Part shown: piece after piece, positions 41,278 through 44,267 of the stretch
Layout of the letters: each line of letters opens with the position of its first letter
Numbering within the stretch: the first letter of the stretch is position 1
Assembly (NCBI RefSeq): GCF_006345805.1
Contig: NC_043011.1
Coordinates: 13,900,464 to 13,964,463, forward strand
Reading direction: 5' to 3'
Source: Octopus sinensis
Taxonomy: Eukaryota
Length of the DNA: 64,000 bases
Made by a program: the position numbers

Positions 41278-44267
41278 ATGGGAAGCTTTATGAAAATAGA
41301 CAAAAGACGAAGGCAGGTTTACGGAAATAAACAAAAGACGAAGGCAGGTGGAATACAAACAAACAATTGTATTAGTATGGCGCTCAGGAAATATAAATAA
41401 AACAAGAAAATGGAGGAACAAATTCATTTCAATCATCAACTTACAGATATTACCATTTCATATTATTTATTAACTTTCAGCGGTGGTGCCCCAGCATGGC
41501 CGTGGCCTTCGGGCTAAAAACATTTTTAAGGATTTTAAGGATTTATATAAATAGGAATATCCAAATCGAACAAAACAATATACATCAATATGCAAGATAA
41601 TAATACCATAAGAATAATACACATAAAATGGTCCTTACAGCTGTTTCAGCCTAAAGATAAAAGTATCTCATTCTGCCTATATTAGTCAGATATCCCATAG
41701 TGGGTTACCCTCATAACCCCTGTCTTACTTTGTATATATATACTAAGCACAGACATGGCTATGGTTAAGAAGACAGCTTCCCAACCATGTGTGTTTGTGT
41801 CGCCTAGTCTTAACATCACATGATGGTTATAAATGAATGTTACTGTCACACAGTGTCATTCATTTTGAGTATTCTGTGAAAATGTCTGGCTCTGAGAAAG
41901 ATGTTACAATATTACCTTGCTTGGAAACACGAGAAGGTTGGCTACAGGAGGGGCATCTAATTGTAGAAAAACTGCCTCCAATAAAACTTTGTCCAACTGA
42001 TACAAGCATAAGAAAAGTGGATGTTAAAATATGTATAGAAGGTAAAGTGTTTGAGAATATATGCCAGCTATGGTATTAGGTGGCGAGCTGGCAGAAACGT
42101 TAGCACACTAGGCAAAATGCGTAGCCGTATTTCGTCTGTCGTTATGTTGTGAGTTCAAATTCCGCCAAGGTCGGCTTTGCCTTTCATCCTTTCGGGGTCG
42201 ATAAATTAAGTACCAGTTATGCACTGGGGTCGATGTAATCGACTTAATACCTATGTCTGTCCTTGTTTGTCCCCTCTATGTTTTAGCCCCTTGTGGGTAA
42301 TAAAGAAATAGGTATTAGTTCTTAGATTACACTGGTAACAGAAGGACCCTATCTTCTGGAAGTCTCATCTGTGTCTCCACTGTCCATAGGAAAGACATGA
42401 ACATCATAGACTTAATGACATTAAAACGTTTTGGCTTTCATGCCTAGCTAGAGAAGATAGTGGGAGAACACCACAATGCAAATTGATTCAGAAAAGCTAA
42501 TACCTGTGTAAACAACACTTATGATTAAGTCTGCTGTGAATCCATGTCTATCCAGTTTATTGTTTTTTTGTTTACAGGGAATCTGAAGACACAGTGCTGC
42601 TTATACTTAAGGAGTTGTACTCAATAGTAGGAATTTATCCTCAGACGAATTGGCCAGATTCAATGAACCGAAGTACAGTTGCACCTCCTTCTTCAGCTGT
42701 TCCTCTTACTTCACCTTCAACTCCTCTCCAAACACCTTCCTACTCAGAACCACAATTAAATTCTAAAAGACGAGAATATTCAAGTCCTGGTAGCTCTCAA
42801 GCCACTGCAAATCATTTTGGTGTATTTTCCCCTGTGGGACCTCCTACTGGCCCTCCCCTAAAGGGACATCCTTCAGTTGGTCCTCCCCCCATGGGACCAC
42901 CTCCAACAGGCCCTCCACCTATGAGGCCTTCAGTTGGTCCTCCCCCTATGGGACCTCCTTCAACTGGCCCTCCCCCTATGGGACCTCCTTCAACTGGCCC
43001 TCCCCCTATGGGACCTCCTTCAACTGGCCTTCCCCCTATGGGACCTCCTTCAACAGGCCCTCCCCCCATGAGACCTCCTTCAAGCCTTCCTCCCATGGGA
43101 CCTCCTTCAACAGGCCCTCCCCCCATGGGACCTCCTTCAGTTGGTCCTCCCCCCATGGGTCCTCCTTCAACTTCTACTCCCTCCATTGCACCTCCTACAA
43201 CTGCTCCTGTGTTATCTCATCTACCCATGGGTCCACCTTCAACAAATCTTCCTCCACCCATGGGTCCACCTTCAACAGCTCCATCAATGATACCCCCCAC
43301 TACAGGTCCTCAAACGACTGGTATGCCAGTTGGACCTCCTCCATTGACAGGGTTTATAAAAAACACCTACTAAAATGGAATGGAGGTTTAATCTCTCAGA
43401 TCTGAACTAAGTTTCATATTCAAAGTAACATTTAATTTTACATCTAGGTAGGTAAGACACTGACTTGTACTTAAAGATATGAATAAATGAAAACCATTCC
43501 TCAGGTGTTTCTTACTACTTCTTCACTACAATTTTGCGAGTTAAAGTGGGTTTTTGGATGTTCTCTCTCCACTTCGTTTCCACTTCACATCACTCCTTGT
43601 TGTCAACAAATACTGTCATTCATCAACTTTGTATCTCTTATCTAAGCACATCTACATGCGCCCACTTCTTTGCTTTATGGTTGTCCACTGAATCTGATGA
43701 TAACTATCATCTTTTTCATTTGTAGATTCTTTGATGACACATCCCAATATTTGCTATGCAACTTTAGTAGTTGCAGATGAAACATATAAACGTTTTTTTT
43801 AGAGAGCTCAGAGATTACTCTGCAAGTATACACTTTTTCTCCCTTCTAGTAATACTGAGTATGTTTCTTATCCATGTTTTTAATCTCCTTCCAACAGCAA
43901 GATCACCAAGATTACTCGAACACAGGTAACAATATCTCCCACTCACGAAATGCTGATGTTGCATCTCTTCAAAGGCATATTCAGGTAATCTTTGATTGTC
44001 ATACCATTATGGTGGTAGCTGCCTTCCACACTATGCTGCTTTCGATGAAATCATAAAGCATATCAGATGCAGGAGTGTCTGTGTGGTAGGTAGCTTGCTT
44101 ACCAACCACATGGTTCCGGGTTCAGTCCCACTGCGTGGCATCTTGGGCAAGTGTCTTCTACTATAGCCTCGGGCCGACCAAAGCCTTGTGAGTGGATTTG
44201 GTAGATGGAAACTGAAAGAAGCCCGTCGTATATATGTATATGTGTGTGTATATATATATATATATAT

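What the first reader, a model, noticed from the sequence alone, without database searches (positions are those of the whole stretch)
42640..43373. ~245-aa C-terminal tail of PPPMGPPSTG repeats on a SEC23IP/DDHD2 protein
Seen: after the last DDHD helix (ESEDTVLLILKELY), where vertebrate SEC23IP/DDHD2 end within about 15 residues, the frame continues through a dozen or more PPP/GPP motifs. These are built from a 30-bp repeat with frame-preserving indels and end in VGPPPLTGFIKNTY. Established: triple-proline motifs of Sec31 and TANGO1/cTAGE5 bind Sec23, and vertebrate SEC23IP has its Pro-rich region at the N-terminus. Inference: a multivalent Sec23-binding or condensate-forming tail that could alter COPII coat assembly at ER exit sites.
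Basis: partly seen in the sequence, partly recalled or inferred. Interest (0 to 1): 0.7.

Follow-up and report, generated by a model that had tools for sequence, protein, structure and literature searches.

The report
Proline-repeat tail on octopus SEC23IP/DDHD2 lipase
The octopus version of a lipase that works at the cell's protein-export sites ends in a long, floppy proline-rich tail; most invertebrates have a shorter version with the same conserved end motif, and octopuses have multiplied one short piece about ten-fold, perhaps to grip the export coat protein Sec23 at many points.

Summary
Window 42578-43373 (+) is the last coding exon of the octopus SEC23IP/DDHD2-type gene. Its tail is letter-identical to the public protein 'phospholipase DDHD2 isoform X2 [Octopus sinensis]'. 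After the last DDHD helix come 250 codons with 34% Pro and 11 PPP runs. They include ten tandem 27/30-nt units ([GS][PL]PPM[GR]PP[SP][TV]) and end in GPPPLTGFIKNTY. AlphaFold2 predicts no structure after the helix.

The tail itself is not special to octopus. 40 of 42 named protostome orthologues (molluscs, nemertean, brachiopod, myriapods, chelicerates, insects) end in xGPPP[LM][QAST]GF[V][RK]. Excluding the two octopods, their tails are 68-153 aa long with 1-6 PPP runs. Seven vertebrate SEC23IPs stop 11-12 residues after the helix. Only Octopus (11 PPP runs) and Argonauta (13) carry the amplified array. The two arrays open with the same two units, so the array was probably inherited.

The best reading is a disordered tail with many short binding motifs whose PPP motifs engage the Sec23 gelsolin domain. 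That function is inferred, not tested. [quoted passage not shown] I rate this a new variant of a known kind, of moderate interest.

The parts
42578..43373 (+). Terminal coding exon of the SEC23IP/DDHD2-type gene (1 base completing a Trp codon, 264 codons, and the TAA stop)
   Evidence: Acceptor AG at 42576-42577 and donor GT at 40848-40849 give tg|g = Trp in phase. The tblastn HSP of P0001 residues 937-1203 lies at 42570-43370 with 99.25% identity. The tail is letter-identical to P0001.
42579..42620 (+). Last helix of the DDHD domain (ESEDTVLLILKELY)
   Evidence: The Pfam DDHD profile ends at residue 953 of P0001, which is the Y of KELY. AF2 gives a helix at residues 3-17 of the exon with pLDDT 87-89. 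S2 E3 D4 T5 L7 L10 Y14 are invariant in 30 sequences.
42621..42878 (+). Non-repetitive Ser/Thr/Pro-rich linker (86 aa). It opens with the conserved G-I-x-P-Q patch, which is where vertebrate SEC23IP ends.
   Evidence: G18 is invariant and P21 nearly invariant. There is no Pfam match. pLDDT is 41-59 with no secondary structure.
42879..43172 (+). Ten tandem units [GS][PL]PPM[GR]PP[SP][TV] (eight of 30 nt, two of 27 nt)
   Evidence: TRF gives period 30 and 12.6 copies at 42835-43203. Positions 3, 4, 5, 7 and 8 (PPM.PP) never change at the protein level yet carry 8 synonymous differences. In total there are 15 synonymous and 8 non-synonymous codon differences from the unit consensus.
43173..43331 (+). 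Decayed repeat copies (LPMGPPST, NLPPPMGPPST) and a Ser/Thr/Pro linker
43332..43370 (+). Conserved C-terminal short linear motif GPPPLTGFIK followed by NTY
   Evidence: PP..GF lies within the last 30 residues in 40 of 42 named protostome orthologues, always 3-9 residues from the end. P253 P254 P255 G258 F259 are invariant in 30 sequences.
43371..43373 (+). Stop codon TAA
43482..43487 (+). First AATAAA after the stop (candidate poly(A) signal, weak evidence)
   Evidence: There is no + strand AATAAA inside 42578-43373, but the hexamer is common here (136 in the window against 117 expected).
40709..40847 (+). Penultimate coding exon (DDHD domain, ...[27 protein letters not shown] + tg)
   Evidence: Pfam DDHD E 2.6e-11, profile positions 202-244. 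Splice sites were read.
32340..32559 (+). Exon holding the start of the DDHD domain
   Evidence: Pfam DDHD E 3.1e-12, profile positions 1-57. It is 99% identical to P0001. Splice sites were read.
66..230 (+). First exon of the gene inside the window (WWE_3 domain). Residues 1-334, including the N-terminal Pro-rich region, lie upstream of the window.
   Evidence: tblastn HSP of P0001 residues 335-389. Pfam WWE_3 E 9.2e-18.

Best explanation
The region is the translated, intrinsically disordered C-terminal tail of the single octopus SEC23IP/DDHD2-type intracellular lipase (WWE - GHSLG lipase core - SAM - DDHD). A Pro-rich tail of about 70-150 aa ending in the short linear motif xGPPP[LM][QAST]GF[V][RK] is found in all protostome groups sampled and is absent from the vertebrate SEC23IPs sampled. 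In the octopod lineage, a 9-11-residue module containing the GPPPM core of that motif was amplified by unequal crossing-over or slippage to about 10-12 tandem copies. This doubled the tail length and raised the number of PPP motifs from 1-6 to 11-13. Inferred mechanism: each PPP motif is a low-affinity ligand for the aromatic cleft of the Sec23 gelsolin-like domain, the site used by Sec31, TANGO1, cTAGE5 and Sec16. The array would then act as a polyvalent Sec23 binder placed directly after the lipid-binding SAM-DDHD module. It would raise avidity for the inner COPII coat at ER exit sites and could compete with or template Sec31 binding. The invariant GF end motif would be a separate docking point whose partner is unknown. 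Shown here: the anatomy, the gene identity, the conservation pattern, the predicted disorder and the octopod-specific amplification. Inferred only: Sec23 binding and any effect on coat assembly.
For: The tail is letter-identical to the public O. sinensis model P0001. The end motif is present in 40 of 42 named protostome records. Within the tail, the only invariant columns among 30 sequences are G18 and P253-P255, G258, F259. That is how short linear motifs in a disordered region behave, and it places the octopus repeats upstream of, and in frame with, a selected element. Tail length and PPP runs: Octopus 250 aa/11, Argonauta 258 aa/13, and the other 38 protostomes 68-153 aa (median 109.5)/1-6 (median 3). 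The Octopus and Argonauta arrays open with the same two units (GPPPMG.PPT, then GPPPMR), so the array is probably inherited. All unit-length changes are multiples of 3, and the PPM.PP core is invariant with 8 synonymous differences. Disorder: AF2 of Argonauta P0002 with 49 sequences gives pLDDT below 50 and no secondary structure over most of 929-1175, and the end motif is not docked on the folded domains. AF2 of the window's own exon with 30 sequences gives one helix (3-17) and then none, with pTM 0.19. Literature (passages read): PPP motifs bind the Sec23 gelsolin domain and act multivalently (PMC7594496; PMC6175875). Sec23IP is said to contain a Sec23 PPP interaction motif, and Sec16, TFG, Sec23IP and TANGO1 are said to bind the inner coat through Pro-rich regions (PMC7116127). 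p125A needs its Sec23-binding IDR plus C-terminal PI4P binding to phase-separate at ER exit sites (preprint 10.1101/2025.05.07.652703). Drosophila PAPLA1 co-precipitates with Sec23 and Sec31 (PMC4085702).
Against: No binding was tested. Two of the ten units read LPP rather than PPP. I could not read the flanking requirements of the Sec23 cleft because Ma & Goldberg 2016 is not held. Near-identical neighbouring units show recent turnover, which also fits neutral expansion. Other protostomes manage with 1-6 PPP runs, and some have a single one. I saw no transcript or peptide evidence for the octopus locus itself, and the isoform list could not be fetched. In yeast, loss of all Sec31 PPP motifs alone caused no growth defect (PMC7594496), so extra PPP motifs need not matter much.
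Confidence: 0.5

Rival explanations
1. Neutral low-complexity expansion. The array is a coding minisatellite that grew by slippage or unequal exchange in a disordered region that tolerates it. It adds no function beyond the ancestral tail and end motif.
For: Adjacent units are identical except for one synonymous base. All three + frames are open across the array. The window holds several other tandem arrays. 38 other protostomes have only 1-6 PPP runs. The exhaustive phmmer search found 184 unrelated-looking Pro-rich proteins matching only the repeat part, so such sequence arises easily.
Against: Both Octopus and Argonauta keep 10 or more units, with the same first two units. All indels keep the frame, and the PPM.PP core is invariant with 15 synonymous against 8 non-synonymous codon differences overall. 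The frame must be kept to reach the invariant end motif.
Confidence: 0.25
2. The tail, at least its GF end motif, is a Ca2+-dependent docking site for the penta-EF-hand protein ALG-2 (PDCD6), like the type 2 motif of Sec31A. It would link the lipase to ER exit sites through ALG-2 rather than directly through Sec23.
For: The end motif PPLTGFI matches 6 of the 7 positions of [P/hydrophobic]PX[P/hydrophobic]G[FW][large] (definition in PMC7504102, and PMC4346919). Gly, Phe and the following large residue, which cannot be replaced in Sec31A, are invariant or nearly so here. 12 of the 40 motif-bearing orthologues fit the strict motif, with Ala at position 4. The authors report that the Sec31 type 2 motif is restricted to reptiles, birds and mammals, so invertebrates would need another ALG-2 handle. 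cTAGE5, another PPP-motif protein, bound ALG-2.
Against: Position 4 is Thr in octopus and Gln, Ser or Thr in 28 of 40. In Sec31A the matching Pro-to-Ser change abolished binding, while Pro-to-Ala kept 40-75%. The ten repeat units lack the GF pair altogether.
Confidence: 0.08
3. The repeats are read by another class of proline-recognition domain (profilin, EVH1, WW, SH3 or GYF), or they serve mainly as an O-GlcNAc/phospho-regulated spacer. In that case the tail connects the lipase to the cytoskeleton or to signalling rather than to COPII.
For: GPPPMGPP loosely resembles formin/VASP-type profilin ligands (recalled, not tested). The tail has 57 Ser+Thr among 250 residues. In human Sec23IP, 21 of 22 reported O-GlcNAc sites lie in its disordered N-terminal region and matter for transport (PMC13499130).
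Against: The units contain no PPxY, no FPPPP, no PPG[hydrophobic] and few basic residues (the motif definitions are recalled). No run is longer than three or four Pro. The family's documented partners are Sec23 and Sec31.
Confidence: 0.1
4. Annotation artefact: the tail is not part of the mature protein because transcripts terminate or splice before the array.
For: I could inspect no octopus RNA or peptide data. The repeat is open in several frames.
Against: The tail is in the same exon and frame as the DDHD helix. The invariant end motif sits in frame at the very end. There is no + strand AATAAA inside the exon. Related tails are encoded on unnamed contigs of 3.3-5.2 kb that carry 780-1100 aa uninterrupted. 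These look like cDNA, which is an inference (P0003 and 18 oyster- or mollusc-like records).
Confidence: 0.03

Closest known systems
Vertebrate SEC23IP (p125A) N-terminal Sec23-binding disordered region
   Same: It belongs to the same protein family (WWE, GxSxG core, SAM, DDHD). It is a Pro-rich disordered region credited with Sec23 binding and with phase separation at ER exit sites (PMC7116127).
   Different: That region is N-terminal and not tandemly repeated. The seven vertebrate SEC23IPs sampled have 1-3 PPP runs in their first 300 residues and only 11-12 residues after the DDHD helix. The octopus protein has both an N-terminal Pro-rich region and the C-terminal tail.
Proline-rich domains of TANGO1/cTAGE5, Sec31 and Sec16 (PPP-motif ligands of the Sec23 gelsolin domain)
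   Same: They carry multiple PPP motifs in a disordered region and bind polyvalently at the interface between neighbouring Sec23 subunits. Yeast Sec31 is quoted with six or seven motifs. The octopus tail has 11 in 250 aa.
   Different: They are not homologous. Here the motifs are near-identical tandem units. Binding was not tested. The tail is attached to a lipase and lipid-binding module rather than to a cage protein or cargo receptor.
[quoted passage not shown]
   Same: The PP-x-x-G-F-[large] core lies in a disordered Pro-rich region of an ER-exit-site protein. G, F and the following residue are conserved.
   Different: Position 4 is Thr, Ser or Gln in most species, a change that abolished binding in Sec31A. 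Here the motif always lies 3-9 residues from the C-terminus and is followed by Arg or Lys.
Drosophila PAPLA1 (CG8552)
   Same: It is an invertebrate member of the family that colocalises and co-precipitates with Sec23 and Sec31.
   Different: In the passages read it is described as N-terminal Pro-rich region + WWE + C-terminal DDHD. Those passages mention no C-terminal tail or GF motif. I did not examine its sequence.

Membership tests
Intracellular phospholipase A1 / DDHD family (SEC23IP-DDHD2 branch) | DDHD domain | tested here: met
   Pfam PF02862 matches window ORFs 32293-32676 (E 3.1e-12) and 40669-40848 (E 2.6e-11). The full profile 1-258 matches P0001 residues 747-953.
Intracellular phospholipase A1 / DDHD family (SEC23IP-DDHD2 branch) | WWE and SAM domains N-terminal to DDHD | tested here: met
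   WWE_3 is found in window ORF 3-299. WWE, WWE_3 and SAM_1 are found on P0001. The SAM exon of the window was not scanned on its own with a positive result; it is covered by tblastn HSPs.
Intracellular phospholipase A1 / DDHD family (SEC23IP-DDHD2 branch) | GxSxG lipase motif | tested here: met
   GHSLG is present in P0001. The exon covering residues 576-616 lies at window 26388-26510 with 97.6% identity. Catalytic activity was not tested.
PPP-motif ligands of the Sec23 gelsolin domain | One or more triple-proline motifs in a disordered region | tested here: met
   There are 11 PPP runs in the 250-aa tail. AF2 gives no secondary structure and low confidence.
PPP-motif ligands of the Sec23 gelsolin domain | Binding to the aromatic cleft of Sec23, lost in cleft mutants | not testable with these tools
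[quoted passage not shown] | Seven-residue consensus [P/hydrophobic]PX[P/hydrophobic]G[FW][large side chain] | tested here: not met
   The octopus PPLTGFI has Thr at position 4. The strict pattern is met in 12 of 40 motif-bearing orthologues. The Pro-to-Ser change at that position abolished binding in Sec31A.
[quoted passage not shown] | Ca2+-dependent binding to ALG-2 pocket 3 | not testable with these tools
Coding tandem repeat (minisatellite within an ORF) | Head-to-tail units whose length and indels are multiples of three | tested here: met
   The period is 30 with 12.6 copies. Units are 30 or 27 nt.

The most novel reading that the evidence does not exclude
The invariant protostome end motif GPPP[LM]xGF[V][RK] is an unrecognised COPII-linked docking site. 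It may serve a penta-EF-hand (ALG-2-type) adaptor or the Sec23-Sec23 interface. Vertebrates would have lost it when the tail was truncated, with amniote Sec31A later acquiring its own type 2 motif. Octopods turned the PPPM half of this motif into a 10-12-valent Sec23 template comparable to the TANGO1 proline-rich domain. That would give a lipid-metabolising enzyme a coat-organising or condensate-forming role at ER exit sites.
Probability: 0.15. Interest if true: 0.7.

Novelty: new variant of a known kind. Interest (0 to 1): 0.38.

Why it matters
SEC23IP/p125A is a poorly understood adaptor between the two COPII layers and PI4P membranes. Its relatives DDHD1 and DDHD2 are spastic-paraplegia genes. 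Work on the family has focused on the N-terminal disordered region. This survey shows that protostome orthologues carry a second, C-terminal disordered region with a near-invariant end motif. None of the papers I found mentions it (searches; passages). That gives a concrete peptide to test for partners. The octopod array offers a natural dosage series (1 to 13 PPP motifs across species) for asking how valency of PPP motifs tunes Sec23 engagement. If the array is neutral, the finding is simply a tidy example of a coding minisatellite kept in frame by a downstream motif.

Tried and rejected
- Tail-exon search among proteins of 145-462 aa: 3 weak hits among 8000 scored candidates. One is an FHA-domain protein and two are unnamed short Pro-rich proteins. 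No partial octopus transcripts turned up.
- Exhaustive phmmer of the tail exon against 1.84 billion representatives: 184 hits at E<=1e-3, 15 at <=1e-10 and 1 at <=1e-30. Every best stretch lies inside query residues 30-249, the Pro-rich part of the tail, and the hit proteins range from 125 to 3640 aa. I read this as compositional similarity, not homology. The top hit P0132 (1346 aa, unnamed) was not fetched or scanned because its origin is unknown and a human origin cannot be excluded, so what it is stays open.
- Protein Atlas with tail residues 85-264: no usable hit.
- PDB sequence search with the exon: 0 hits at E<=1.
- Pfam on the tail ORF: 0 families.
- Intramolecular docking of the end motif onto the folded domains: not seen in the AF2 model of the full-length Argonauta protein, where residues 1160-1175 have pLDDT below 50.
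Isoforms and other Octopus species in the P0001 cluster (13 members) stay unchecked.
- Ma & Goldberg 2016 (PMC5018777) is not held. What I say about it comes from citing papers.
- Pfam scans of 150 of 154 ORFs downstream and on the minus strand, and of 39 of 83 + strand ORFs in 1-21900, found nothing besides the WWE_3 exon.
No supplementary files were consulted.
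Full report
WHAT IS THERE. The + strand frame that reads ESEDTVLLILKELY continues without a stop to the TAA at 43371-43373 and ends in ...MPVGPPPLTGFIKNTY. Tandem Repeats Finder reports an array at 42835-43203 with period 30, 12.6 copies, 79% matches and 4% indels. A codon-level split shows ten consecutive units at 42879-43172. Eight are 30 nt and two are 27 nt, with consensus GGC CCT CCC CCC ATG GGA CCT CCT TCA ACT = GPPPMGPPST. Two decayed copies and the end motif follow. 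The tail after KELY (42621-43370) is 250 aa with 84 Pro, 32 Ser, 25 Thr, 29 Gly, 15 Met, 11 charged and 8 aromatic residues, 11 PPP runs and 21 GPP. One caution applies: the repeat has no stops in the other + frames or in one - frame, so ORF length inside the array proves nothing by itself.

WHICH GENE. Pfam finds DDHD in the ORFs at 32293-32676 and 40669-40848 and WWE_3 at 3-299. The exon 32341-32559 is 99% identical to P0001, named 'phospholipase DDHD2 isoform X2 [Octopus sinensis]', 1203 aa. A tblastn of P0001 against the window gives 14 colinear + strand HSPs from residue 335 (window 66) to residue 1203 (window 43370). The window therefore starts inside the gene, and the N-terminal Pro-rich region (residues 1-240) lies upstream of it. 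On P0001, Pfam places WWE at 246-315, WWE_3 at 320-422, SAM at 624-679 and DDHD at 747-953, and nothing on 954-1203. The donor GT at 40848 and the acceptor AG at 42576-42577 join tg|g into the Trp of HGCYW-ESEDT. The tail thus lies in the same exon and frame as the last DDHD helix, and its letters equal those of P0001. I did not build or search a joined model of the window's exons. Exons were searched singly, and full-length comparisons used the public protein P0001.

IS THE TAIL SPECIAL TO OCTOPUS? It is not. A search with P0001 residues 790-960 found 1773 proteins at E<=0.001 among 2001 candidates, of which the best 120 were listed. I kept only rows that a source names. I left out all unnamed rows from the counts and sampled 7 of the roughly 50 named vertebrate rows. 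Of 42 named protostome records, 40 have PP..GF within their last 30 residues, always 3-9 residues from the end. These records comprise 3 cephalopods, 10 gastropods, 16 bivalves, a nemertean, a brachiopod, 2 myriapods, 7 ticks, Limulus and 2 insects. The column consensus is x-G-P-P-P-[L23/M12]-[Q14/A12/S10/T4]-G-F-[V27]-[R24/K14]. The two exceptions are the heterobranch snails Aplysia and Biomphalaria, which end ...AGGYRR. In alignment A1, the 38 protostomes other than Octopus and Argonauta have tails of 68-153 aa (median 109.5) with 1-6 PPP runs (median 3). Octopus has 250 aa and 11 runs, and Argonauta has 258 aa and 13. Seven vertebrate SEC23IPs have 11-12 residues and no PPP run, Trichoplax sp. 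H2 has 12, and the hemichordate Ptychodera has 31 without the GF motif. In a 30-sequence alignment headed by the window's own exon, the only invariant tail columns are G18 and P253, P254, P255, G258, F259. The tail and its end motif are therefore a widespread protostome feature. The cuttlefish Acanthosepion has the end motif but no array (1 PPP run), so the amplification is octopod-specific among the sequences seen. The Octopus and Argonauta arrays begin with the same two units (GPPPMG.PPT, then GPPPMR), which argues for one origin before these lineages split.

IS IT TRANSLATED AND CONSTRAINED? No RNA data for octopus could be examined, and the isoform list was unavailable. Five lines of indirect evidence apply. 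First, the invariant end motif lies in frame downstream of the array. Second, all unit-length changes are multiples of three. Third, the unit positions PPM.PP never change at the protein level yet carry 8 synonymous differences, and overall there are 15 synonymous against 8 non-synonymous codon differences from the unit consensus. Fourth, there is no + strand AATAAA within the exon, and the first one lies at 43482 (this is weak because the hexamer is common). Fifth, unnamed contigs of 3.3-5.2 kb encode 780-1100-aa orthologues with complete tails: one cuttlefish-like record (P0003) and 18 other mollusc records. Such contigs can only be cDNA-like, which is an inference.

STRUCTURE. AF2 of the full-length Argonauta protein with 49 aligned sequences folds the WWE, lipase, SAM and DDHD parts. 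It leaves almost all of 929-1175 below pLDDT 50 with no secondary structure, and the end motif does not dock on the folded body. AF2 of the window's own exon with 30 sequences gives one helix (residues 3-17, pLDDT 87-89) and nothing after it, with pTM 0.19. The tail is best described as an intrinsically disordered region carrying short linear motifs.

HOW IT MOST LIKELY WORKS. Triple-proline motifs bind an aromatic cleft of the Sec23 gelsolin-like domain. TANGO1, cTAGE5, Sec31 and Sec16 use several such motifs, and in the assembled coat the motif and its neighbouring residues bridge adjacent Sec23 subunits (passages of PMC7594496; PMC6175875). [quoted passage not shown] It also states that Sec16, TFG, Sec23IP and the TANGO1 family bind the inner coat through Pro-rich regions in competition with Sec31 (PMC7116127). 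p125A binds PI4P, Sec31 and Sec23, and its phase separation at exit sites needs the Sec23-binding disordered region together with C-terminal PI4P binding (preprint 10.1101/2025.05.07.652703; abstract and passages). Drosophila PAPLA1 co-precipitates with Sec23 and Sec31 (PMC4085702). On this basis I infer that the tail's PPP motifs are Sec23 ligands. I also infer that the octopod array raises valency about three- to ten-fold next to the lipid-binding module. None of this was tested here.

THE END MOTIF. [quoted passage not shown] G, F and the next residue, which are essential in Sec31A, are conserved here. Position 4, however, is Thr in octopus and Gln, Ser or Thr in 28 of 40 species. The equivalent Pro-to-Ser change abolished binding in Sec31A, while Pro-to-Ala kept 40-75%. 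Only 12 of 40 species fit strictly. I therefore do not file the motif as a type 2 motif and keep ALG-2 as a minor rival. Its partner is unknown.

RIVALS. Four alternatives are scored in the rival section: neutral minisatellite growth in a tolerant disordered region, ALG-2 docking, other proline-recognition domains or O-GlcNAc regulation (PMC13499130), and non-translation.

SIMILARITY SEARCHES WITH THE TAIL. These led nowhere useful. There were three weak hits among near-length proteins. The exhaustive search gave 184 compositional hits confined to the repeat part. The Atlas, the PDB and Pfam gave nothing.

NOVELTY. The sequence itself is already in a public gene model. A Pro-rich Sec23-binding region in this family is known, but at the N-terminus. 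In the papers my searches returned and the passages I read, I found no mention of a C-terminal tail, of the GF end motif or of the octopod array. These were three word searches of an open-access library, not a full review, and no supplements were consulted. I rate the finding as a new variant of a known kind and of moderate interest. The conserved end motif is the more testable lead. The octopod amplification is a lineage curiosity unless valency is shown to matter.

Noticed in passing
window 11129-11457, 19795-19936, 22664-23261, 58329-58713: One family of 63-67-bp tandem arrays (unit begins GGCACGTAAAAAGCACCATCCGAACGTGGCCG...) recurs in three introns of the gene and once downstream. One copy is in the opposite orientation. 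It looks like a dispersed satellite or the repeat tail of a mobile element. These arrays account for the GC-rich blocks at 10-12 kb and 22-24 kb.
   Followed up: no
P0001 and orthologues, N-terminal residues 1-60 (upstream of the window): The invertebrate orthologues share a conserved N-terminal patch (consensus MAD...K..TPPPLLLMPAGGGLTL.PP......MPV.Q.EP...GEADSFVGQ) and a second patch N..R......YA..P inside an otherwise variable Pro-rich region. These are further candidate short linear motifs.
   Followed up: no
window 42621-42650 (SIVGIYPQTN): The patch G-I-x-P-Q just after the DDHD helix is conserved from octopus to vertebrates (G18 invariant, P21 nearly so). It is where vertebrate SEC23IP ends (...MGIxPEQPQH). 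The vertebrate protein therefore looks like a truncation at this point.
   Followed up: partly
Aplysia californica P0058 and Biomphalaria glabrata P0060, C-termini: The two heterobranch snails are the only named protostomes without the GF motif. They end in ...PPMGPA.AGGYRR, a shared variant.
   Followed up: no
window 38354-38600: A (TAA)n microsatellite of about 83 copies lies in the intron before the exon at 38913-39110.
   Followed up: no
window 43400-64000: No Pfam domain was found in any of the 112 ORFs of 55 aa or more on either strand downstream of the gene. A perfect 92-bp duplication lies at 45022-45205 and a 184-bp duplication at 56221-56587. GC skew is strong (+0.34) at 44-46 kb.
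   Followed up: no
Acanthosepion pharaonis P0004, around its residues 880-900: The public cuttlefish model lacks part of the DDHD domain (…NIFHPGRSKCRSHTNF…). This is probably a gene-model error. The unnamed cuttlefish-like record P0003 (1100 aa) has the same tail.
   Followed up: no
protein P0132: The only hit below E 1e-30 to the tail exon is an unnamed 1346-aa protein that matches with five stretches near its own C-terminal part (1065-1187). It was not fetched because its origin is unknown.
   Followed up: no
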